From a virus (lineage: Duplodnaviria > Heunggongvirae > Uroviricota > Caudoviricetes): 28,484 bases of DNA. Numbering within the stretch: position 1 is the stretch's first letter; every line of letters starts with the position of its first letter. The position numbers and the translations under genes are program-made. The DNA lies in IMG/VR virus record IMGVR_UViG_3300009614_000107; one strand, given 5' to 3'. A model generated the notes under the pieces. That model was not told the DNA's origin. It ran no database searches and saw only the letters and a program-made list of their open reading frames with translations. This document shows positions 370-26,814 of this stretch, piece after piece.

Positions 370-1341
370 TCACTGCTGTTGGAGTGGAATTATTGTCTCA
401 AAACGCCTCATTGTATTTCGGATTGAGACAGGTGTAACATTGAAAATGTAGCCAACATCATCCTGTGTGATATTGGTGTTCTGATTGCGGTGTAAGTAAA
501 ATGATGCTGCTGAGACAACAAATGGATTCTTGCCAATCATTTCCCTTTTGACTGCTTCGAGCTTAGTGAAGTCTATGGACTTAGACATAATGTCACGTAT
601 TTCGTCTTGTGGGATTTTCTTCTCTTCTGCATACTTGAGAAGTGCATCCTTCTTAGATGTGATTACCATCTCACACGTGATTTTGCAGGATTGAACCCCA
701 GCTTCCTTGGCATCCTTGACAGCATCGTAGAGGCATCTAATCTGATCGTGTCCATCGACTTTGCTGTATCGAGTATAAACATCTTTGAACTGGAGTGGTG
801 TTTCTGAGTTTGCTGGACACTTAGAGAGCAGATAGATTAGGGCAGCTATGGTAACATGGTATGCTCTTCCACGGAAGTTGGCAAGACCGATCTTCTCACC
901 AATCTCGTGCTTTAGGAACATCTTGTCCGACTCTGAGAAGTCATAGCATATTATATCAACAACATTTGAGATGTTGTCTGTCACGTGCCTAATTCGCTTG
1001 CGCTCTCTGCTCTTTTGGCTGTACTTAGGAAGCCTTGCTTTTTGCCTATCTCTGGTTTCTGTAAGCATTCTTTCTCTAGTTGCACGAAGTTCATCGTATC
1101 GATCAAGAATTGTCTGTCGCATTCCATCTTCAAGTTCTATGATGCACTTACCATTTATGAAATGGATTTTGATGCCTGGAATCTTGTTTACTGCTGTCCT
1201 TCGATGAAGTGTCTTGGACATATATTCTGGATCGTTGCAAACGACCTCATTCATTTTCTTGTTACCACGTACAAACTTTAAGATAATCTCGTCACGTGGT
1301 GTAATTCTCGGTGGTACTACTCCTTTTGGCATATTAGTCAA
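370..1341 (-). CDS. Transcription factor B (TFB/TFIIB)-like protein, two cyclin repeats, no N-terminal Zn ribbon
   Basis: FRGRAYHVTIAALIYLLSK resembles TFB repeat 1 (RGRS...AA.LY); GKNPFVVSAASFY...ITQDDVGYIFNVTPVSIRN resembles repeat 2 and its HTH (GK.P...AAA.Y...TQ.EVA....VTEVTIRN). Confidence 0.8.
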   Translation of the reverse strand: MTNMPKGVVPPRITPRDEIILKFVRGNKKMNEVVCNDPEYMSKTLHRRTAVNKIPGIKIHFINGKCIIELEDGMRQTILDRYDELRATRERMLTETRDRQKARLPKYSQKSRERKRIRHVTDNISNVVDIICYDFSESDKMFLKHEIGEKIGLANFRGRAYHVTIAALIYLLSKCPANSETPLQFKDVYTRYSKVDGHDQIRCLYDAVKDAKEAGVQSCKITCEMVITSKKDALLKYAEEKKIPQDEIRDIMSKSIDFTKLEAVKREMIGKNPFVVSAASFYLHRNQNTNITQDDVGYIFNVTPVSIRNTMRRFETIIPLQQQ

Positions 1342-1379: not shown

Positions 1380-2270
1380 TTATTGTTTCTTACTAGTGGT
1401 CTTTCCGAACTGTGTTTTGAGAGTGTCTTTCCAGTCCTTGTTGTCCTGTTCCTTTTTCTTTTTAATACGCTTGTCGATGAGTGTGGTCCAGTTGTACATT
1501 CCATCACGGACATACTTTGGAATCTTGTACTCTTCACGGTATATTTTTGGTGGACCACCATCTATCTCGATTACAGTAGCACCGATGCTTGGTGTGATGT
1601 TTGCTGATTTCTTTGCCATAAATGGAGTAGTATATTGCCAGCAACCATTTAGGATTCCCCAGACACCATTATCATCTTGGACGGAATAGAACCTGTGCTG
1701 GTGGCCACGAATGATAATATCTGGTCCATCAATTTTGTTTTTAGCAGCGTCCTTCTCAGACTGAAGCATTTCACGAATAATGTAGGAAGATGGATTGACA
1801 ATTGATACCGAGCCACCGTGTGTAGCCTGGATTTTTACAGTGCCTCTTCCATTGTTGTTGACATCAAACTCGAAGATATCTCCCATATATTGACCACCCA
1901 TACCTTCGAGAACCCTGCGATCTATGTTTGTCGCTTGACCAAGACCACCGTGATAGCCACTGCCATTCACACCAAAAACTGTGGTCTTGTTTGTAATCAT
2001 CTTGTCAAATAGTTCAATGACCATTTGGACTTGCTCATCTGTGTCTGTGACAAGTGCGTCTACACCTAAGTTTTTGGCTTGTGAACCGTCAGCTAAGTCA
2101 CCCATTGTTAAAATATAATCGGGTCCATTGTGTCGCTTACAAAGGTCAAGCCAGCATACGTGAATCCACTTTAAAAATTCGTTATTCCTGTCACGTGGCA
2201 CGGATGATGGTGATGCTAAACCATAGATTGAGCCAATATGTGTATCGCCAATGGCGATAATTTTTACCAA
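1380..2270 (-). CDS. Calcineurin-like metallophosphoesterase
   Basis: Motifs GDTHIG, MGDLADG, GSGYH (GNH variant), ATHG, RGHQH in canonical order. Confidence 0.85.
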   Translation of the reverse strand: MVKIIAIGDTHIGSIYGLASPSSVPRDRNNEFLKWIHVCWLDLCKRHNGPDYILTMGDLADGSQAKNLGVDALVTDTDEQVQMVIELFDKMITNKTTVFGVNGSGYHGGLGQATNIDRRVLEGMGGQYMGDIFEFDVNNNGRGTVKIQATHGGSVSIVNPSSYIIREMLQSEKDAAKNKIDGPDIIIRGHQHRFYSVQDDNGVWGILNGCWQYTTPFMAKKSANITPSIGATVIEIDGGPPKIYREEYKIPKYVRDGMYNWTTLIDKRIKKKKEQDNKDWKDTLKTQFGKTTSKKQ

Positions 2271-2959: not shown

Positions 2960-3105
2960 GCTTTACTGCACTTTACTTAACTGTACTTTACACCACTGTA
3001 CTCCACTGTACTGCACTATACTATTCTGCTTTGCTTTACTTTACTATACTTGACGTAACTTCACAGAACGATACTACACTCAACTTCACTAAACTTCTCT
3101 GCTTT
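2960..3105 (-). ncRNA. Two tandem 73-bp pentamer-repeat guide-like RNA units (putative VIPR-like guides A and B)
   Basis: Each unit on the minus strand is AAAGCAGA-(NN-AGT)x12-AAAGC (A 2960-3032, B 3033-3105). The array starts within the stop codon of the RAMP gene. Confidence 0.8.
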
Positions 3106-3670
3106 AAGACTTCTTTTTAACTGGCTCGAATTTGGCAACCTCAAACCTACCGTATTTTGGGCGATAAGTTCCGATGCCCTTCTCCTTGCCAGCTATCTCA
3201 AGAAGTTCCTTCAATGTTTCACCCTCTATCAAACTTTCGTCTGCTACTCTAAGGATGAAATCGAACTCCCAATCATTCCAAATTGGTCGAGCAATCGGTA
3301 CTCGGCCACGAGTTGCAGGAATTACTCCAAGACGAACATCCGTCTGGAAATCCTTCCCATTTTTGAACGGGATCTCGATTGGGAGAACTACAACGTTGGT
3401 TTTCATCATATCCTTGTAGGTTTTCTTTCCTCTGCCTGGGATAGTTTTGGAACTGCCAACATTGATCAGTGCGCCTTCGATATGATCTGAAGGCTGGTAA
3501 ATATCTCCTTTTACATTTTTATAGAGGCACTTTTGAACCTCTTCTGCTGGGTCAAAAACAGAACCACGAACCTTCTTTTTTGTGATGCTTAAAGCATCAA
3601 GAGGGTATCGGTTGTGCATAAGGGGAACGACTCCCCTTATCTTTACTGCATAGTCTAACAAATTATACAC
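3104..3670 (-). CDS. Stand-alone RAMP/Cas7-like protein (putative Vipr-like guide-binding effector)
   Basis: N-terminal strand VKIRGVVPLMH, central IYQPSDHIEGAL (cf. RAMP PYIPGSSLKGAL), C-terminal Gly-rich loop GIGTYRPKYGRF; flanked on both sides by pentamer arrays; no other cas genes in the window. Confidence 0.75.
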   Translation of the reverse strand: MYNLLDYAVKIRGVVPLMHNRYPLDALSITKKKVRGSVFDPAEEVQKCLYKNVKGDIYQPSDHIEGALINVGSSKTIPGRGKKTYKDMMKTNVVVLPIEIPFKNGKDFQTDVRLGVIPATRGRVPIARPIWNDWEFDFILRVADESLIEGETLKELLEIAGKEKGIGTYRPKYGRFEVAKFEPVKKKS

Positions 3671-3697
3671 CTATGTAGTGAGTACATAGATTTAGAA

Positions 3698-3709
3698 TTT
3701 ATAAATATT
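3698..3709 (-). promoter_or_regulatory. AATATTTATAAA promoter of the RAMP gene and guide A/B transcript
   Basis: Exact motif 28 nt upstream of the GTG start. Confidence 0.75.
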
Positions 3710-3720
3710 AGCGAAAATTT

Positions 3721-3822
3721 GGTGGCTTCAAGTTTTGTTCAGCCACCCTTTACTTAACTTTACTTTACAGGACTTTACTCTACTCGACATTACTTAACAG
3801 CACATTACTATACTTGAGCAAG
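3721..3822 (-). ncRNA. Stand-alone pentamer-repeat guide-like RNA C with own promoter and 3' hairpin
   Basis: Minus strand TTGCT-(NN-WGT)x13 (pentamers 3752-3816)-AAAGG, then stem GGTGGCT/AGCCACC (3721-3727 and 3741-3747); promoter AATATTTATAAA at 3844-3855. 5' end estimated. Confidence 0.8.
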
Positions 3823-3843
3823 ATATGTTTTTCTTTTAACTTG

Positions 3844-3855
3844 TTTATAAATATT
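3844..3855 (-). promoter_or_regulatory. AATATTTATAAA promoter of guide-like RNA C
   Basis: Same motif about 23 nt upstream of the TTGCT leader, with no ORF following. Confidence 0.75.
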
Positions 3856-3928
3856 ATGATTTAAAAACTAACTAAGATGGGCTTTGCTTGATTGTGGTTA
3901 CAGAAAAACTGGAACCTATAGCGTTAGG

Positions 3929-4015
3929 CTACTTTTTCGCCTTTCGCCTATTATACGACTTGACATGAACGACCTTATTTTTTTGGTGTCGTGTGTACGA
4001 TTTTACGTGTGGCAT
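3929..4015 (-). CDS. 28-aa basic peptide, putative virion DNA-binding protein (missed by ORF track)
   Basis: MPHVKSYTRHQKNKVVHVKSYNRRKAKK*; internal HVKSY repeat; same AGGAGGGTAG RBS (4023-4032) as the capsid-like genes. Confidence 0.75.
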   Translation of the reverse strand: MPHVKSYTRHQKNKVVHVKSYNRRKAKK

Positions 4016-4080: not shown

Positions 4081-4100
4081 CGTCAGGCTATCTTTCAAGA

Positions 4101-4307
4101 TTAAATCTTGTCAGATGACCTTGCAGCAACTGATATACCTACAAGTAAAGCTATAAGTACCAATATGCTGGCCATTACGTTGGCAGCCGATGTGAGGTTA
4201 GTTGAAGCAGCAGCCATAAATCCTAATGTAGCGATTAGAAGTACTACAGCTATAGCTACGACATATCCCAATATTGGTCGAGTTGTATCGAGCAGACCTT
4301 CTCCCAT
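4101..4307 (-). CDS. Putative major capsid protein of spindle-shaped virus type, copy 2
   Basis: 68 aa, two long hydrophobic helices joined by a short polar loop with an NLT sequon; RBS AGGAGGGTAG at 4315-4324. Confidence 0.65.
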   Translation of the reverse strand: MGEGLLDTTRPILGYVVAIAVVLLIATLGFMAAASTNLTSAANVMASILVLIALLVGISVAARSSDKI

Positions 4308-4410
4308 TTTTTAACTACCCTCCTAACGACTGTAAGGTGATGCGTTGTTGCCTCACCTGGGAACGATGTCTGGAGTTCTTCACTCCAGAGAGATTAATGG
4401 CTTGACAGGC

Positions 4411-4617
4411 TTAAACCTTGTCTGCGCTGCGTGCAGCGACAGAGATCCCTATGAGTAGGGCAATCAATACCAAGATGCTCGCCATTACGTTGGCAGCAGA
4501 GGTAAGGTTTGCACTTGTTGCAGCCATAAAGCCTAGGGTAGCGATTAGCAGTACCACGGCAATTGCCACAACATAACCCAATATGGGACGTGTAGTGTCA
4601 AGTAGACCTTCACCCAA
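4411..4617 (-). CDS. Putative major capsid protein of spindle-shaped virus type, copy 1
   Basis: 63/68 aa identical to 4101-4307; TTG start; RBS AGGAGGGTAG at 4625-4634; TTTATAT box near 4698-4704. Confidence 0.65.
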   Translation of the reverse strand: MGEGLLDTTRPILGYVVAIAVVLLIATLGFMAATSANLTSAANVMASILVLIALLIGISVAARSADKV

Positions 4618-4763
4618 AACTATTCTACCCTCCTAACAGGCTGAGATGATAGGGGCATCACTTTTGATAGCTCCAAGCGTAGAATATGCGCTTTGAAATA
4701 TAAACTTATCCACTTTGATTCGAGCTGATCTCGTTTCTAAATGCTCACACTATAAAAAAAGAG

Positions 4764-7199: not shown

Positions 7200-7244
7200 T
7201 CTTATCCCTGAATTAATAGGTGCGATTATTTATAAATATTCTGA

Positions 7245-13391: not shown

Positions 13392-13850
13392 TTACCACTC
13401 CGAAATTTTTACAATGTCACGAATCTGCATTATCATCTTTCCGAGCTTGTCCTGACCTTTAAAACCCCAGTATGGATGGCTTGTGTTTTCGTGGAGAACA
13501 GCATCACCAGTGAGTACAAGTTGCTCCTTTAAGCCTTCGTTCTTTACAAACTTTGCCTTTAATCCAGCCATCATAACTGTGTCCTTGACCCTATCCCAAT
13601 CTTTGCGAATTTTCTCGACTGAGAAGGATTGGCCAGCTTTCATAGCTGAAAATGGTGTGGGTGAGTTGATTATCCACTGAACTAGTTCAGGATCTGTGTA
13701 TTTTGCACTTTGATAGAAATGTTCTACTGAACCATATTTTCTTGGTGTTTTATCTAGAGACACTGGGTTGACAACCGTTATTTCAACTGGGTAGAGATTA
13801 GATAGGAAATTGTACTTCTCAGACCTATAGTTGAAATAGATTTCGTTCAT
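13392..13850 (-). CDS. NADAR (YbiA-like) family protein
   Basis: FLSNLYP, SVEHFYQSAKY, DWDRVK..VM...LKAKF, LVLTGDAVLHE, YWG, LGKMIMQIR; promoter at 13879-13890. Confidence 0.9.
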   Translation of the reverse strand: MNEIYFNYRSEKYNFLSNLYPVEITVVNPVSLDKTPRKYGSVEHFYQSAKYTDPELVQWIINSPTPFSAMKAGQSFSVEKIRKDWDRVKDTVMMAGLKAKFVKNEGLKEQLVLTGDAVLHENTSHPYWGFKGQDKLGKMIMQIRDIVKISEW

Positions 13851-13894
13851 TTAGTTCGTTATGTATAAGGTGTTTGTGTTTATAAATATTCTGG

Positions 13895-18840: not shown

Positions 18841-19005
18841 ATGACGAAAGGAGTAGCATTGGGAAAGTATGACTGCCAACTGTGTGAGCATTATGGCGGT
18901 TCCTGTGAGAATACGTACAATAATCCAGGCACTGTGATCTTCTGTAAAAAGCAAAGATGCCTCATAAAGAGGCGATCCAGTCCTATGAAGGGGTGGCGTT
19001 CATAA
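18841..19005 (+). CDS. Small Cys-rich protein (54 aa)
   Basis: Manual ORF MTKGVALGKYDCQLCEHYGGSC...; overlaps the next ORF. Confidence 0.35.
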   Translation: MTKGVALGKYDCQLCEHYGGSCENTYNNPGTVIFCKKQRCLIKRRSSPMKGWRS

Positions 19006-19382
19006 ACAATTATATTCCAGAGACACAGTATATCATCTTAGACGGTTCTTTGAGGAAAACGAAGCCAGAAGCTACTTTAGAGGCATCTTTTGAGAGGTTT
19101 GGGATACCCTACACGCCTCAGAAATCTATTGCAGGGACTGTATTGGTGGATATCTTCTTGGAACCAAACATTTGTGTCTTTGTTGATGGGGATTACTGGC
19201 ATAACTATCCTTTGGGTTTGGACAAGGACAAGCGTCAAACGGAGTTATTGGAGTCTTGGGGCTATAAAGTATTCAGATTCTGGGAGCACGATATATTAAA
19301 TAATCCAGATTTAATTACCCAGAAATTAATTGAGGAAAATAATATTAAAATAAATAATAACTTGGAGGAGTATTTTAATTGA
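18957..19382 (+). CDS. Vsr/DUF559-like PD-(D/E)xK endonuclease
   Basis: VDIFL...VFVDGDYWH...DK....LESWGYKVFRFWEHDI. Confidence 0.85.
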   Translation: MPHKEAIQSYEGVAFINNYIPETQYIILDGSLRKTKPEATLEASFERFGIPYTPQKSIAGTVLVDIFLEPNICVFVDGDYWHNYPLGLDKDKRQTELLESWGYKVFRFWEHDILNNPDLITQKLIEENNIKINNNLEEYFN

Positions 19383-20202: not shown

Positions 20203-21060
20203 ATGGGTGTTAGACAAGGCGGTTGGGCTCCACGTCAGCCTCTATTGAGTAAAGACGTTTTGAACGCATTGAAGGAAGATCTCATTCCATTGTGGGATGA
20301 GGGATTGAGTGCAGAAGAAATAGCAGACAGACTGGAGTTCGGTAAGTACCCATATGAAGATTTGAAAACTTATCACGTTTGGTACTATAGAAAACAATTT
20401 GGTTGTCAGAAAAGAAAGGGTGGAATTGAGAAAGGAAAGCCACGTTATAATGTCAAGCCTGATGTTATTGAACCACCAACCATTCAGGAAATTGAAGCCA
20501 AATTGAATGAAGTCTATCCACTATTGAAAAACAATGCTGGTGCAACTGACCTCAACACATTGATGGTTAGAGCATACATCTGGTTGCACAGATACAGTCC
20601 ACTGAGAAAAAGTGAGATATATGAGAGGGAACTAGGTGACTTCTACATTGATGAGAAAGCAAAAATACTAACACTTCAGAACTTTATCAGGAAAAAGAAA
20701 TTAAAGGGTAAAGCAAAAGAAGCACCTTTCCTTATCCCCTTGGATTATCCACACGTGATGGATGAAATTGTCACCTATCTTGTAAGAAGGATTGAACGTA
20801 CACAGGATTCGAGTGCCAAGGCATTTCCAATGTCGGGTTGGGTTGCCTGGAACAGAATGAAGAAAGCCTTCCCAGATATGTACCCACACTACTGGAGATT
20901 CAAATATATCACAGAGTCTGCCAGTGACCCAAACGTCCCTATTGAAGATTTACTAGCAGATACTGATCTAAATTTACTGACTTTGAGGCGTTATATGATG
21001 ACGGGTGAAAGACAACGTTTGGCTTCATTACAGAGAAGGAAACAGAGAGAACTTGTTTAA
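20203..21060 (+). CDS. Tyrosine recombinase/integrase with N-terminal HTH
   Basis: Catalytic pattern R (PLRKSEI), K, HxxR (PHYWR), Y (TLRRY); N-terminal GLSAEEIADRL; GGTGA RBS. Confidence 0.8.
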   Translation: MGVRQGGWAPRQPLLSKDVLNALKEDLIPLWDEGLSAEEIADRLEFGKYPYEDLKTYHVWYYRKQFGCQKRKGGIEKGKPRYNVKPDVIEPPTIQEIEAKLNEVYPLLKNNAGATDLNTLMVRAYIWLHRYSPLRKSEIYERELGDFYIDEKAKILTLQNFIRKKKLKGKAKEAPFLIPLDYPHVMDEIVTYLVRRIERTQDSSAKAFPMSGWVAWNRMKKAFPDMYPHYWRFKYITESASDPNVPIEDLLADTDLNLLTLRRYMMTGERQRLASLQRRKQRELV

Positions 21061-21140
21061 AGTTCTCTTGTTTCGCTTTAGTTCACACCACTGTACTATA
21101 CTATACTTAACTTTACTCGACTAAACAGTACTAAAGCAAT
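21039..21140 (-). ncRNA. Orphan pentamer-repeat guide-like RNA D with own promoter and 3' hairpin
   Basis: Minus strand TTGCT-(NN-AGT-type)x11 (21080-21134)-AAAGC; hairpin 21039-21053 / 21061-21074 spanning the recombinase stop; promoter AATATTTATAA at 21161-21171. Confidence 0.8.
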
Positions 21141-21160
21141 ATTGAAAATGCTCTAGTGAG

Positions 21161-21171
21161 TTATAAATATT
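21161..21171 (-). promoter_or_regulatory. AATATTTATAA promoter of guide-like RNA D
   Basis: Same motif about 22 nt upstream of the TTGCT leader. Confidence 0.75.
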
Positions 21172-21177
21172 AGTATT

Positions 21178-21551: not shown

Positions 21552-22907
21552 CTAAGTCTGTTTCTCAGAGGCGTAGACTGTGCCTTTGGCTGTTAGCTTC
21601 CATCTAGCGTGACCACCTTCGTCAACTTTTGAAATATAGCCTTCGTCTGTGTACTGGTTGAGCCTTCTGGCCAATGTTGCAGATGGAATTCCTGTCTTTG
21701 ACTGTAGATCATTGAATGAGTAGGAATGCTCCATTAGCCTTCCGAAGATCAGTGAATCTCCAATTCTTGGTCTTTTTACTGGTGGAACAATTGTGCTATC
21801 CATAGCCTCATTAACCCAACTTCTATTAATTGATTCATATCTTCGTCTTGAGTTCTGCTGTGTTCCGAGTGTGCCAAACATATCCCTGTAGATATCTGAT
21901 ATTGGGGATATTGGCTGACCCATCTCAGGTGCTGGATATTTCTCATCTCTTCGAGTGATCACGATGTGGATACAGTCTTTGTTGAGGTTTGTGTACTCAC
22001 AGGTGACTAACTTTGTGTTTATAGCGTGTGTTCCATCTTCTAGGTGGAAGATTGACTCGTTGAGTTCCTTCAGGAAGGAACGTATCTTGTCCTTGACCGC
22101 TTCCATATTGATTGTGAAGAGATCGGCTACAGCATCGTCTTGGTGGAAGATTTCCGAGAAGGATTTGACTACCTCTTTGCCCAGTGCTTTCCAGCTCTCT
22201 GGGGAATCAAAGAGTTCAAGTCCCTGTACACCGTCTACATTGATTATGGCTACACCTACCTGATCCTCATAGTCTGGGACTTTGGATAGGGCATCCATTA
22301 TTTTGTCACTGAAGTCTGTTCGGTTCTTTGAGTTGACATCTAGGGTTGCTGCAAGATCAGGATCCTGAGACATACTTGCGTGAGCAACAACAGAGTCAAA
22401 TCCACGATCCATTAGTCTGCTTGCTGACTTCATACTGTAGCTTTGAACCTCTCCCCAGACTCTATGCTGGTCACGAGATTGCAGGGCTGAGTAGACTTTC
22501 TGTGGTGCTAGGTCATTCATTATCTTGAATCCACCACCTGAGACTATGCCTCTGTGTGCGTGAACACACTTGACTTCGATGGGTTCACCGTTTGCCTGTG
22601 GAAGGATTATGACTCCTTGAACTACAGCACGATCCTGACCTGACATACCCTTGAACACTGTTCCTCCACGAATAAAGACTGAGGAACCAGATTTGTTGTC
22701 CACTTTGAGTTTGTCAATCTGACCTGTGTCCGTGATTTTTACTTTGTCCTTGTCCTCTGAGGCAAGGATATAACTGCGTTTTGGAGGTGCATTGCACCTA
22801 ACTGGGACTAATATGGTTAGCCCCTTTTCACCCAATCTCCAGGGATCGCCTAAGTAATAGGTTCCGTTCAGAGACTGGATGCTTTCGATTACTTTATTGA
22901 AGAGCAA
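21552..22907 (-). CDS. ARPP-1 (DUF6569)-like domain protein with C-terminal winged HTH
   Basis: LKVDNKS...VFIRGG.VFKG...QDR...IEVKCV...QHRVW...QVGVAI...LELFDSP matches my recollection of ARPP-1; C-terminal SFNDLQSKTGIPSATLARRL...GYI...WKLTAKG wHTH. Confidence 0.7.
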   Translation of the reverse strand: MLFNKVIESIQSLNGTYYLGDPWRLGEKGLTILVPVRCNAPPKRSYILASEDKDKVKITDTGQIDKLKVDNKSGSSVFIRGGTVFKGMSGQDRAVVQGVIILPQANGEPIEVKCVHAHRGIVSGGGFKIMNDLAPQKVYSALQSRDQHRVWGEVQSYSMKSASRLMDRGFDSVVAHASMSQDPDLAATLDVNSKNRTDFSDKIMDALSKVPDYEDQVGVAIINVDGVQGLELFDSPESWKALGKEVVKSFSEIFHQDDAVADLFTINMEAVKDKIRSFLKELNESIFHLEDGTHAINTKLVTCEYTNLNKDCIHIVITRRDEKYPAPEMGQPISPISDIYRDMFGTLGTQQNSRRRYESINRSWVNEAMDSTIVPPVKRPRIGDSLIFGRLMEHSYSFNDLQSKTGIPSATLARRLNQYTDEGYISKVDEGGHARWKLTAKGTVYASEKQT

Positions 22908-24634: not shown

Positions 24635-24677
24635 GTTGAATCAAGTATGGATAAGGATTAGTGTTTATAAATATTAT

Positions 24678-25589: not shown

Positions 25590-25674
25590 TGGCGGTGAGA
25601 GTGGGGATCGAACCCACGAACACCGAAGTGTACTGGTTTAGCGAACCAGCCCCTTACCGCTAGGGAATCTCACC
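25590..25674 (-). tRNA. tRNA-Ser(GCT) with encoded CCA
   Basis: Acceptor GGTGAGA/TCTCACC, discriminator G, CCA; anticodon stem CTGGT/ACCAG with loop TC-GCT-AA; long variable arm ACAC-TTCG-GTGT; T arm GTGGG-TTCGATC-CCCAC. Confidence 0.9.
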
Positions 25675-25895
25675 ACTCTTCTTTTTCTACGCATCTTCCT
25701 TTTATTACTTGCTATACTGTAGACGTAAACCAATCCAAATACAAGTGTGAAAAAACCCCCCACGAGATGCAAAGGACGTACAGGTAACGAGTATCCCATT
25801 TCTTCGGGTATATGATCCAAATCGAGCACGATCCCAGCACACCCACCAAGAAGTGCCACCCTAAATCCCATATAATCAAAGAGATTGGCCACATT
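25638..25895 (-). CDS. Small membrane protein with DLDH...R..H motif (metal-dependent hydrolase-like); frame ambiguous, possibly a pseudogene
   Basis: One frame gives GIVLDLDHIP...RPLH but runs into the tRNA; an overlapping frame gives MWPISLIIWDLGWHFLVG. Confidence 0.35.
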   Translation of the reverse strand, partial: NVANLFDYMGFRVALLGGCAGIVLDLDHIPEEMGYSLPVRPLHLVGGFFTLVFGLVYVYSIASNKRKMRRKRRVVRFPSGKGLVR

Positions 25896-26814
25896 ACATC
25901 CACTCCTTTGGGACTTTGGATAAATTGCTCTTGGATGAATCATAGACCTGAGTTCCAAGTTTACGCCTCTTGAGTGTCCCATCAAGAGCCTGTAATATTC
26001 TAATCTTGGCTAAGTCTACATACTCTTTTTCCTTATCAATTCCTATTGCTTTTCTGTTATGGAGTACTGCTACTATCAGGGAAGAGCCAACACCCATAAA
26101 TGGGTCGAGAACTATGTCACCTTCATTTGTTAGAGCAAGAACCAGTCGCTCGACAAGTTCAATTGGATATTGACAAGGATGAGTTGTTTTCTCTGGGTGG
26201 TTGGACTTTACATTTGGAATATCCCAGACTTCATTCTCCCAATCTTCAACAAGAACATCCCAGATATCTGATGGATTTTTGCCAAGTGGATTGCCTGAGA
26301 GTTGACCAGCCTTTGCACCATCAAAGTACTTTTTGCCTGGGTATTTCTGTGGGACTCTGATGCTGTCTAAATTGAAAATATAATCATCTGTCTTTGTGAA
26401 CCAGAGAATGGTTTCATATCGACCAGAGAAGCGGTATGTGCAATGGAGTCCGTGACCAAATTTCCAAATTATTCGGTTACGGAGCTTGAGTCCAAGTCTC
26501 TCTCTAAGTATCTGGTAGAAGAAGATGTCGAGTGGATAGACTTCACGATCTGAGATATAGTTGCCAGTCTGCCAACAGATTGAGCCATTGGGCTTCAGGA
26601 TCCTTATGCACTCTGTGAGAATTTCCTGTTGCCAGTCAAGATATTTTCCGAGCTCGGTTCTCTGTTCATATGGCTTGCCTATGTTGTAAGGGGGAGATGT
26701 AACTATCAGGGTCGCTAAGTCTGATGGTGTTGACTTGAGAAATTCTAAACTGTCCGACTGGGATAGCAGAATATCAGATGGCGTGTAGGTGCTGGAGAGA
26801 GTGATATTCATCAT
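25894..26814 (-). CDS. Site-specific DNA methyltransferase (N4-C/N6-A, beta class)
   Basis: TSPPYN precedes HPCQYP and VLDPFMGVGS; no adjacent restriction endonuclease. Confidence 0.92.
   Translation of the reverse strand: MMNITLSSTYTPSDILLSQSDSLEFLKSTPSDLATLIVTSPPYNIGKPYEQRTELGKYLDWQQEILTECIRILKPNGSICWQTGNYISDREVYPLDIFFYQILRERLGLKLRNRIIWKFGHGLHCTYRFSGRYETILWFTKTDDYIFNLDSIRVPQKYPGKKYFDGAKAGQLSGNPLGKNPSDIWDVLVEDWENEVWDIPNVKSNHPEKTTHPCQYPIELVERLVLALTNEGDIVLDPFMGVGSSLIVAVLHNRKAIGIDKEKEYVDLAKIRILQALDGTLKRRKLGTQVYDSSKSNLSKVPKEWM

What the first reader, a model, noticed from the sequence alone, without database searches (positions are those of the whole stretch)
2960..3855. Stand-alone Cas7-like gene with (NN-AGU)n pentamer guide RNAs: candidate RNA-guided system using a gapped, wobble-skipping code
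Seen: a 188-aa RAMP-motif protein with no other cas genes or CRISPR array, flanked by units of constant triplet plus variable dinucleotide. There are 48 pentamers over 4 units (37 AGT, 8 TGT, 2 CGT, 1 ACT) with fixed ends (AAAGCAGA or TTGCT leader, AAAGC/AAAGG tail). Joining the NN pairs with one skipped base gives protein-coding motifs in all four units. Established: RAMP proteins polymerise along guide RNAs with fixed periodicity. Recalled, not checkable here: VIPR systems with GGY/NN repeats that skip every third target base. Inference: this is an archaeal-virus version with an AGU scaffold, one protomer per pentamer.
Basis: partly seen in the sequence, partly recalled or inferred. Interest (0 to 1): 0.97.

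Follow-up and report, generated by a model that had tools for sequence, protein, structure and literature searches.

The report
VIPR guide-RNA system, AGU-scaffold archaeal-virus member
This is a VIPR system, the CRISPR-related viral gene-silencing system described in 2026 preprints: one Cas7-like protein plus four guide RNAs built from five-base repeats, here in a probable archaeal virus that uses A-G-U instead of G-G-pyrimidine as the fixed part of each repeat.

Summary
There are 48 pentamers in four minus-strand units (37 AGT, 8 TGT, 2 CGT, 1 ACT) around a 188-aa gene. The protein matches the solved SUSP1 Vipr protein by sequence (profile E 6e-17) and folds like Cas7 (Csm3/Cmr4). No CRISPR array or cas gene was seen.

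VIPR is already published (bioRxiv 10.64898/2026.04.26.720920, .720927, 2026.10.15.759431). Those papers include non-GGY repeat variants (YNNNG) and archaeal viruses, and this scan has noted VIPR loci in more than 230 other genomes. I therefore file this as a new member of a known kind.

- The Asp that reads the first G in SUSP1 Vipr is Thr here. Thr/Ser goes with non-GG scaffolds and Asp/Glu with GGN scaffolds in about 60 relatives.
- Array units abut without structured tails, at an AAAGC+AGA junction. Stand-alone units have archaeal-type promoters and end in hairpins.
- Under the 1-nt skip rule, guide A hits motif I of type I restriction hsdR genes in frame, in 28 genomes (23/24 bases). A shuffled control gave 2 hits.
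- Guides C and D near-match adjacent own genes. Guide B has no target.
- A metallophosphoesterase gene is a recurrent vipr neighbour.

The host, RNA expression and binding remain untested.

The parts
3104..3670 (-). vipr gene (188 aa, GTG start, probably leaderless): a stand-alone RAMP/Cas7-like protein
   Evidence: PDB 36pp SUSP1 Vipr, E 9.5e-8 and profile E 6e-17. AF2 pLDDT 85.6. Foldseek top hits are Csm3/Cmr4/type VII Cas7, E 2.5e-8. PHROG 4652, E 1e-15.
3699..3710 (-). TATA/BRE-like promoter motif 29 nt upstream of the vipr start codon
   Evidence: The 12-mer occurs 15 times in the window against 0.57 expected, mostly just upstream of gene starts.
3714..3856 (-). Stand-alone vrRNA gene U1 (guide C). 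Promoter 3845-3856, TTGCT leader 3817-3821, 13 pentamers 3752-3816, AAAGG 3747-3751, 7-bp hairpin 3721-3747, then a T-run.
3025..3105 (-). vrRNA U2 (guide B), first unit of the array co-transcribed with vipr. AAAGC (overlaps the stop codon) + AGA, 12 pentamers 3038-3097, then AAAGC AAAGC + AGA junction.
   Evidence: No promoter motif lies between vipr and the array. The tract is unstructured.
2960..3024 (-). vrRNA U3 (guide A): 12 pentamers 2965-3024 plus terminal AAAGC 2960-2964
   Evidence: Its NN series matches hsdR motif I at 23/24 bases under the 1-nt skip rule.
21039..21172 (-). Detached stand-alone vrRNA gene U4 (guide D), 17 kb from vipr. Promoter 21161-21172, TTGCT 21135-21139, 10 NNNGT + GAACT 21080-21134, AAAGC 21075-21079, 15-bp hairpin 21040-21074.
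   Evidence: hairpin fold z -3.3
1380..2270 (-). Metallophosphoesterase (296 aa): candidate vipr-accessory (vap) gene
   Evidence: Pfam Metallophos E 1e-8. Local match to the archaeal PolD small subunit. A homologue lies next to vipr in L005, L008, L129, L006, L010, L009 and in the GGT-type loci L021, L011 and L068.
3930..3967 (-). Near-cognate site of guide C (21/26 NN bases, in codon register) in the 28-aa basic ORF 3929-4015
   Evidence: (1 of 1000 pair-order shuffles reaches 21 within the window)
20977..21008 (+). Near-cognate site of guide D (18/22 NN bases, in codon register) near the C-terminus of the 285-aa ORF 20203-21060
   Evidence: (2 of 1000 shuffles)

Best explanation
This is a VIPR (Viral Interference Programmable Repeat) system carried by a probable archaeal virus or mobile element.

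Shown here:
- The 188-aa gene is a Vipr-family RAMP protein.
- It is flanked by, and 17 kb away accompanied by, four same-strand units of 11-13 pentamers. Each pentamer has a constant A-G-U (the published G1-G2-Y3) and two hypervariable bases.
- Two units are independent promoter-to-hairpin cassettes. Two directly follow the vipr stop codon.

Inferred from the SUSP1 work:
- One Vipr protomer binds each pentamer, buries the constant triplet and presents the NN pairs.
- The filament reads double-stranded DNA as NN-x-NN-x, with one target base skipped, usually the codon wobble base.
- Binding blocks transcription of the bound gene.

Inferred from the comparison made here: the change of scaffold from G to A at the first constant base goes with replacement of the G-loop Asp that reads G1 in SUSP1 (D177) by Thr (T168). 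The residues that hold G2 and Y3 are kept (R128 for R138, Y169 for W178, R170 for R179).

Likely targets:
- Guide A: motif I (Walker A) of EcoEI-like type I restriction hsdR genes.
- Guides C and D: relatives' alleles of the neighbouring small basic-protein gene and the 285-aa gene.
- Guide B: unknown.
For: Protein:
- Sequence match to solved SUSP1 Vipr and full-length match to Felixounavirus Viprs.
- Cas7 fold.
- The family has 5,206 representative clusters.

RNA genes:
- Exact pentamer counts and entropy contrast.
- The same NN-A-G-Y arrays lie beside every close relative, with different NN content: L005-L010 and L129, and L142, L143 and L146.
- Guides are identical in four independent samples of the same virus.
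- The promoter motif lies upstream of vipr, U1 and U4.
- The repeat tracts are unstructured and the stand-alone units end in hairpins.

Scaffold and protein covary:
- Asp/Glu goes with GGN in about 40 loci.
- Thr goes with AGY in the window clade plus L142, L143 and L146.
- Thr goes with [G/U]GU in L144.
- Ser goes with UGU in L032/L033.

Code:
- Guide A pairs 1-10 with a 1-nt skip give 28 exact hits in 185,579 genomes. All are in frame and all lie in one HsdR family; the one ORF checked, L085, has ResIII + EcoEI_R_C + HSDR_N domains.
- A shuffled pair order gives 2 hits, and two guide B patterns of the same length give 0.
- Guides C and D have their best in-window matches only under skip 1. 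The matches are in codon register and lie next to the guides.

Description of VIPR.
Against: - No transcript, RNA-protein or DNA-binding data exist for this clade.
- No 24/24 target was found for any guide.
- Guide B has no candidate at all.
- In a 1-Mb pool of related loci, skip 1 did no better than skips 0, 2 and 3 or shuffles for 28 clade guides.
- The in-window hits of guides C and D are only 81-82% matches. They fall within the shuffle range once the search space is enlarged.
- Array units lack the conserved structured 3' tail that caps SUSP1 vrRNAs, so how their ends are made is unknown.
- The Thr-AGY link rests on few independent lineages. Thr also occurs with [G/U]GU, so it may relax specificity rather than re-specify it.
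- An hsdR motif match could reflect how guides arise rather than what they silence.
Confidence: 0.9

Rival explanations
1. It is a VIPR system, but the outcome is target destruction rather than silencing. The conserved neighbouring metallophosphoesterase (an Mre11/PolD-DP1-like fold class) would act as a nuclease recruited to Vipr-bound DNA, as proposed in print for the VIPR types that carry nuclease or helicase vap genes.
For: A Metallophos gene lies beside vipr in nine further loci. Three of them (L021, L011, L068) have GGT- or GGC-type repeats and Viprs only 25-41% identical to this one, with the gene directly upstream of vipr. There is a local match to the PolD small subunit exonuclease family. 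The preprint says types III-V carry predicted nucleases or helicases.
Against: In this window the gene is separated from vipr by the array and a membrane-protein gene. No nuclease activity can be read from the sequence, and the profile finds no solved relative. The phosphoesterase superfamily has many non-nuclease members. A virus that keeps 81-82% self-matches to guides C and D would be at risk if the effector cut DNA.
Confidence: 0.25
2. The Vipr-RNA filament targets RNA rather than DNA, as the Cas7 backbones of type III and type VII CRISPR do.
For: The closest solved folds apart from Vipr are the RNA-targeting Csm3, Cmr4 and type VII Cas7.
Against: All matched sites (28 hsdR hits, guide C, guide D) have the same sense as the guide, so the guides cannot pair with those mRNAs. 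The homologous SUSP1 complex binds double-stranded DNA.
Confidence: 0.04
3. The pentamer tracts are not guides. They would be protein-binding or decoy repeats (TRAP-like triplet-repeat RNA sites), or plain tandem repeats or spurious ORFs.
For: Gene callers placed ORFs over the arrays on the opposite strand. Triplet repeats at 5-nt spacing bind TRAP in Bacillus; this is my own recollection and was not tested.
Against: The arrays always accompany a Vipr gene on its strand. The constant triplet tracks a Vipr G-loop residue. The NN pairs are hypervariable between relatives while the frame and unit length are kept. One NN series spells a conserved protein motif in frame in 28 genomes. No Rfam family matches.
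Confidence: 0.02

Closest known systems
Type II VIPR of Escherichia phage SUSP1 (Vipr + vap1 + vrRNA1-4; bioRxiv 10.64898/2026.04.26.720920 and .720927)
   Same: - A single small RAMP protein homologous over its whole length.
- One vrRNA upstream and an array downstream of the gene, on the same strand.
- 11-13 pentamers per RNA, each a constant triplet plus NN.
- G-loop motif kept, with the Arg and aromatic residues conserved.
- Guides that fit coding sequence with the skipped base at the wobble position.
   Different: - The constant triplet is A-G-U, not G-G-Y, and the G1-reading Asp is Thr.
- There is no conserved pseudoknot tail. Array units abut at an AAAGC+AGA junction, and stand-alone units end in unrelated hairpins.
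- Promoters are archaeal TATA-type and vipr is probably leaderless.
- There is no small DNA-binding vap next to vipr.
- Two guides have 81-82% matches on the element itself. The preprint reports no self hits of 80% or more.
VIPR types with alternative repeats (NNNGG, YNNNG, NNNNG) and staggered arrays, mentioned in the Methods and fig. S17-S18 of the same preprint
   Same: Read in the published register, the repeat here is U-NN-A-G, which is a YNNNG repeat. Units directly abut, as in the 'staggered' arrays. The preprint also reports VIPR in archaeal viruses.
   Different: The preprint text available here gives no sequences, type assignment or protein determinants for these variants. I could not tell whether this clade is among its 667 systems or which of the seven types it belongs to.
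Class 1 CRISPR Cas7 backbone proteins (Csm3, Cmr4, type VII Cas7)
   Same: RRM core, thumb hairpin and glycine-rich loop. Foldseek gives probability 1.0 and TM about 0.6. In these systems protomers polymerise along a guide with a fixed period.
   Different: - No crRNA repeat handle, no CRISPR array, no other cas genes.
- A 5-nt rather than 6-nt period.
- Three guide bases buried per protomer.
- A gapped code, and a double-stranded DNA target.

Membership tests
VIPR system | Vipr protein: a small single-RRM RAMP with thumb and G-loop, homologous to SUSP1 Vipr | tested here: met
   phmmer E 9.5e-8 and profile E 6e-17 to PDB 36pp. tblastn to 124 Felixounavirus-type phages. Cas7 fold. G-loop conserved.
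VIPR system | Minimal locus: no CRISPR array and no other cas genes | tested here: met
   No CRISPR-like repeats. No cas domains in 20 larger ORFs. Not every small ORF was scanned.
VIPR system | vrRNA genes beside vipr: tandem pentamers with a conserved triplet alternating with hypervariable NN, 9-16 repeats per RNA | tested here: met
   Units have 11-13 repeats. Entropy is 1.8-1.9 bits at the NN positions against 0-0.9 bits at the constant positions. The pattern holds in relatives with different NN content.
VIPR system | Constant triplet is GGY (canonical form) | tested here: not met
   The triplet is AGU in 37 of 48 pentamers and never GGU. The preprint allows 'a related consensus', including YNNNG, so this marks a variant and does not exclude membership.
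VIPR system | Invariable structured 3' tail after the repeat tract (pseudoknot in the SUSP1 clade) | tested here: not met
   U2 and U3 have no tail. U1 and U4 end in hairpins of unrelated sequence. This feature is described for type II only.
VIPR system | Guides match natural targets under the 1-nt skip rule, mostly in coding sequence with the skip at the wobble position | tested here: inconclusive
   Guide A: 28 in-frame hsdR hits against 2 for a shuffle, best 23/24. Guides C and D: 81-82% matches in register. Guide B: none. The pooled test on 28 clade guides showed no skip-1 excess.
VIPR system | An accessory vap gene with a DNA-related function | tested here: inconclusive
   A recurrent metallophosphoesterase neighbour. 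It is not adjacent in this window, and its function was not established.
VIPR system | Viral or proviral carrier | tested here: inconclusive
   The same element occurs on contigs of 62.7 kb and about 122 kb. Archaeal-type promoters and a TFB-like gene are present. Vipr matches a PHROG family. No capsid or terminase was seen in the window.
VIPR system | vrRNAs are expressed, co-purify with Vipr, and direct binding to double-stranded DNA | not testable with these tools
   This needs RNA sequencing and biochemistry.

The most novel reading that the evidence does not exclude
Guide A is an RNA-guided anti-restriction device. By reading only codon positions 1-2 of the near-universal Walker A motif of EcoEI-like HsdR, the virus's Vipr filament would silence type I restriction genes of its host, and of many possible hosts, whatever their codon usage. 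This target class does not appear in the text of the three VIPR preprints I could read. A second new point would be that a single G-loop residue (Asp versus Thr/Ser) sets which constant triplet a Vipr accepts, which would give orthogonal scaffolds.
Probability: 0.3. Interest if true: 0.72.

Novelty: new member of a known kind. Interest (0 to 1): 0.5.

Why it matters
- It extends a system described only months ago into an uncultivated archaeal-virus lineage with archaeal transcription signals.
- It gives a concrete natural example of a non-GGY scaffold, together with the protein change that probably permits it. That is a testable rule for making mutually orthogonal Vipr/vrRNA pairs.
- It shows arrays that work without a structured tail.
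- If the hsdR reading holds, VIPR is used against host defence genes as well as against rival mobile elements.
- None of this changes the basic picture already in print.

Tried and rejected
- Pfam and NCBIfam give no family for the Vipr protein.
- Rfam finds only a tRNA.
- Megablast of 25 kb against GenBank phages finds nothing.
- Exact gapped patterns in IMG/VR gave 0 hits for full guide A, full guide B, guide D pairs 1-10, guide C pairs 3-13 and guide A pairs 1-10.
- Guide B in genome contigs gave 0 hits with pairs 1-10 and with pairs 3-12, so the receiver-domain reading is unsupported.
- The metagenome scan with guide A pairs 3-12 gave 21 hits but no 24/24. Two are HsdR-like at 23/24; most of the rest are other helicases, at 22/24 or fewer.
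- An all-against-all test of 28 clade guides on about 1 Mb of related loci showed no skip-1 excess over other skips or shuffles. The real targets are evidently not among the loci fetched.
- The host was not identified. No genome is held for the window. The only close Vipr in genome contigs is a 3.4-kb contig binned to a gammaproteobacterial MAG, which I regard as probably mis-binned.
- The downstream 197-aa gene was considered as a vap and rejected. It is hydrophobic and looks like a membrane protein (read from the alignment; no topology tool was run), and it is conserved only in close relatives.
- The His17 equivalent was considered as a second determinant of the scaffold and rejected, because Asn occurs there with GGU scaffolds too.
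- The profile of the metallophosphoesterase finds no solved structure.
- The 285-aa ORF has no family or PDB match, so 'recombinase' is unverified here.
- No complex prediction was run.

Full report
**What is there**

On the minus strand, a 188-aa ORF (3104-3670, GTG start) is preceded by one pentamer unit and followed directly by two. A fourth unit lies 17 kb away. The units are:
- U1: 3752-3816, 13 pentamers.
- U2: 3038-3097, 12 pentamers.
- U3: 2965-3024, 12 pentamers.
- U4: 21080-21134, 11 pentamers.

Positions 1-2 carry 1.8-1.9 bits of entropy. Positions 3, 4 and 5 carry 0.9, 0.15 and 0 bits. In 200 shuffles of the window the longest NNNGT run is 6, against 13 observed. The window holds no CRISPR-like repeat. 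No cas domain was found in 20 larger ORFs.

**The protein**

Pfam gives nothing. PHROGs gives an unannotated family, phrog_4652, at E 1e-15. Against PDB sequences the protein hits 36pp 'SUSP1 Vipr protein' at E 9.5e-8. A profile of 25 homologues hits it at E 6e-17 over residues 30-188 of 202. tblastn finds the Vipr genes of 124 phage records, mostly Felixounavirus-type, at about 29% identity over 90% of the length.

The AlphaFold model (pLDDT 85.6) has a beta-alpha-beta-beta-alpha-beta core with a beta-hairpin thumb. Its best solved matches are Csm3, Cmr4 and type VII Cas7, at E 2.5e-8, probability 1.0 and TM about 0.6. The family is large: 5,206 clusters at 50% identity with E up to 0.001.

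**What is known**

VIPR was described in three 2026 preprints. They report the following:
- A stand-alone Vipr RAMP polymerises with one protomer per pentamer along vrRNAs made of 9-16 GGY/NN repeats.
- The GGY bases are buried and the NN pairs are presented.
- The complex binds double-stranded DNA in which every third base is skipped, usually the wobble base.
- Binding silences transcription of competing mobile elements.
- There are seven types, alternative repeats (NNNGG, YNNNG, NNNNG), staggered arrays and ribozyme-spaced arrays, and systems in archaeal viruses.

Read in that register, the repeat here is U-NN-A-G, a YNNNG repeat. This scan has also noted VIPR loci on other DNA many times: 341 findings in at least 234 genomes.

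**Anatomy specific to this locus**

- A 12-nt TATA/BRE-like motif occurs 15 times in the window, against 0.57 expected, mostly just upstream of gene starts. Exact copies sit 29 nt before the vipr start codon and 23 and 21 nt before the TTGCT leaders of U1 and U4 (spacings read).
- U1 and U4 are therefore independent transcription units. They end in hairpins of unrelated sequence, with stems of 7 bp and 15 bp.
- U2 and U3 have no promoter of their own. They begin inside the vipr stop codon and abut at an AAAGC + AGA junction.
- The repeat tracts themselves are unstructured (z -0.6 to -0.9).
- The same junction, NNAGC followed by AGA (sometimes ATA or TGA), separates units in L005, L006, L007, L008 and L010.
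- At the junction two constant triplets lie 3 nt apart instead of 5. I infer that this breaks the protomer register and so delimits filaments. This is untested.
- No conserved pseudoknot-like tail exists.

**Relatives**

- The same virus, with a Vipr 99% identical, was assembled in at least four independent samples with identical guides.
- Relatives with Viprs 55-77% identical carry the same NN-A-G-Y arrays, with 3 to more than 10 units and entirely different NN content.
- Their 321 pentamers show the same entropy pattern.

**Scaffold-protein covariation**

In SUSP1, G1 is read by H17 and D177, G2 by R138 and W178, and Y3 by R179 and neighbouring residues. VpaE1 Vipr has the same numbering, and I aligned it with 63 other Viprs. 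In the window protein:
- R138 corresponds to R128.
- W178 corresponds to Y169.
- R179 corresponds to R170.
- D177 corresponds to T168.

Across loci the pattern is:
- Asp or Glu at this site goes with GGU, GGC or GGA repeats (about 40 loci).
- Thr goes with AGU/AGC in the window clade (7 loci) and in the more distant L142, L143 and L146.
- Thr goes with [G/U]GU in the GC-richer L144.
- Ser goes with UGU in L032/L033, and in L145 with a 'GA'-constant repeat that has three variable bases.

Among the best 150 family representatives, 87 have Asp, 12 Thr and 3 Ser. The H17 equivalent does not discriminate. I read Thr/Ser as relaxing or re-specifying recognition of the first constant base. The number of independent lineages is small, so this is a hypothesis.

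**Targets**

Within the window, only the 1-nt skip gives outliers:
- Guide C matches 21/26 bases at 3930-3967, in frame in the adjacent 28-aa basic ORF. One of 1000 pair-order shuffles reaches this score.
- Guide D matches 18/22 bases at 20977-21008, in frame near the end of the adjacent 285-aa ORF. Two of 1000 shuffles reach this score.

These are 81-82% matches. They lose significance in a larger search space.

Guide A, pairs 1-10, searched exactly with a 1-nt skip in one genome per species (185,579 genomes), gives 28 hits. All are in frame and in sense orientation. All lie in the same motif I context of one protein family. The one ORF checked (L085) carries ResIII + EcoEI_R_C + HSDR_N domains, which mark a type I restriction R subunit. 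With the full guide the match is 23/24.

Controls and further scans:
- A shuffled pair order gives 2 hits.
- Guide B patterns of the same length give 0.
- The metagenome scan with guide A pairs 3-12 finds two more HsdR-like genes at 23/24, with a different mismatch, and no 24/24.
- IMG/VR has no hit for any guide.

Guide A therefore spells the hsdR Walker A motif at codon positions 1-2. Whether it silences a host hsdR, an hsdR on a rival element, or merely derives from such a gene is open. Pre-existing restriction enzyme would not be removed by silencing. The preprint text I could read names satellites, prophages, other VIPR loci and host REP elements as targets, not restriction genes.

**Context**

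- The 323-aa gene at 370-1341 has a TFIIB/TFB cyclin repeat: Pfam E 1e-3, NCBIfam E 2e-4, and a profile against PDB TFIIB/TFB at E 3e-5 to 1e-4. Together with the promoter motif this points to an archaeal host.
- The host itself was not identified.
- The 296-aa metallophosphoesterase at 1380-2270 has homologues next to vipr in nine further loci. These include loci with GGT- or GGC-type repeats whose Viprs are only 25-41% identical. It is a candidate accessory gene, possibly a nuclease.
- The 197-aa gene between it and the array is hydrophobic and looks like a membrane protein. It is conserved only in close relatives.

**Verdict**

The system is a new member of a known kind, and interest is moderate. 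The leads worth following are:
- the Asp-to-Thr scaffold rule;
- the tail-less junction architecture;
- the hsdR-motif guide;
- the metallophosphoesterase association.

Noticed in passing
window 1380-2270 (-); L006 5131-5985; L009 4035-4898; L010 3885-4739; L129 405-1217; L021 8956-9684; L011 1811-2518: A metallophosphoesterase gene recurs beside vipr across Viprs that are only 25-60% identical and use different repeat scaffolds. In most of these loci it lies directly upstream of vipr. It has a local match to the archaeal PolD small (exonuclease) subunit.
   Followed up: partly
window 370-1341 (-): A virus-encoded TFB/TFIIB-like protein. Only the C-terminal cyclin repeat is detectable (PDB TFIIB/TFB E 3e-5 to 1e-4). 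It is conserved in L005 and L008.
   Followed up: partly
window, 15 sites, e.g. 1364-1375, 2309-2320, 3699-3710, 7230-7241, 13880-13891, 24665-24676: A 12-nt TATA/BRE-like promoter consensus occurs 15 times (0.57 expected), mostly 20-40 nt upstream of start codons. This implies short or absent 5' leaders.
   Followed up: partly
window 4096-4327 and 4406-4637: A tandem duplication of 232 nt (74% identical), each copy carrying a 68-aa ORF on the minus strand.
   Followed up: no
L010 5300-6100; window 21080-21084, 3817-3821 and 21135-21139: Odd in-frame pentamers ending ACT or GCT (gaact, ggact, ctgct, gcgct) punctuate the long L010 array. They resemble the TTGCT leaders and the GAACT unit of the window's stand-alone guides, and may be a second kind of unit boundary.
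   Followed up: no
window 21075-21139 (-): In U4 the leader plus the first pentamer is complementary to the last pentamer plus the AAAGC tail (8 bp). In the predicted fold this closes the whole repeat tract into a loop. U1 has no such pairing.
   Followed up: no
L145 260-460 and 1047-1110; L144 1614-1700: A Ser-type Vipr (L145) sits beside repeats whose only constant bases are 'GA', leaving three variable positions. A Thr-type Vipr in a GC-richer contig (L144) has NN[G/T]GT repeats.
   Followed up: no
window 13392-13850 (-), 18957-19382 (+), 21552-22907 (-), 25590-25674 (-), 25894-26814 (-): Other cargo in the window: a NADAR-domain protein, a Vsr/DUF559-type endonuclease, an ARPP-1 protein with a C-terminal winged helix, tRNA-Ser(GCU), and an N6/N4 DNA methyltransferase.
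   Followed up: no
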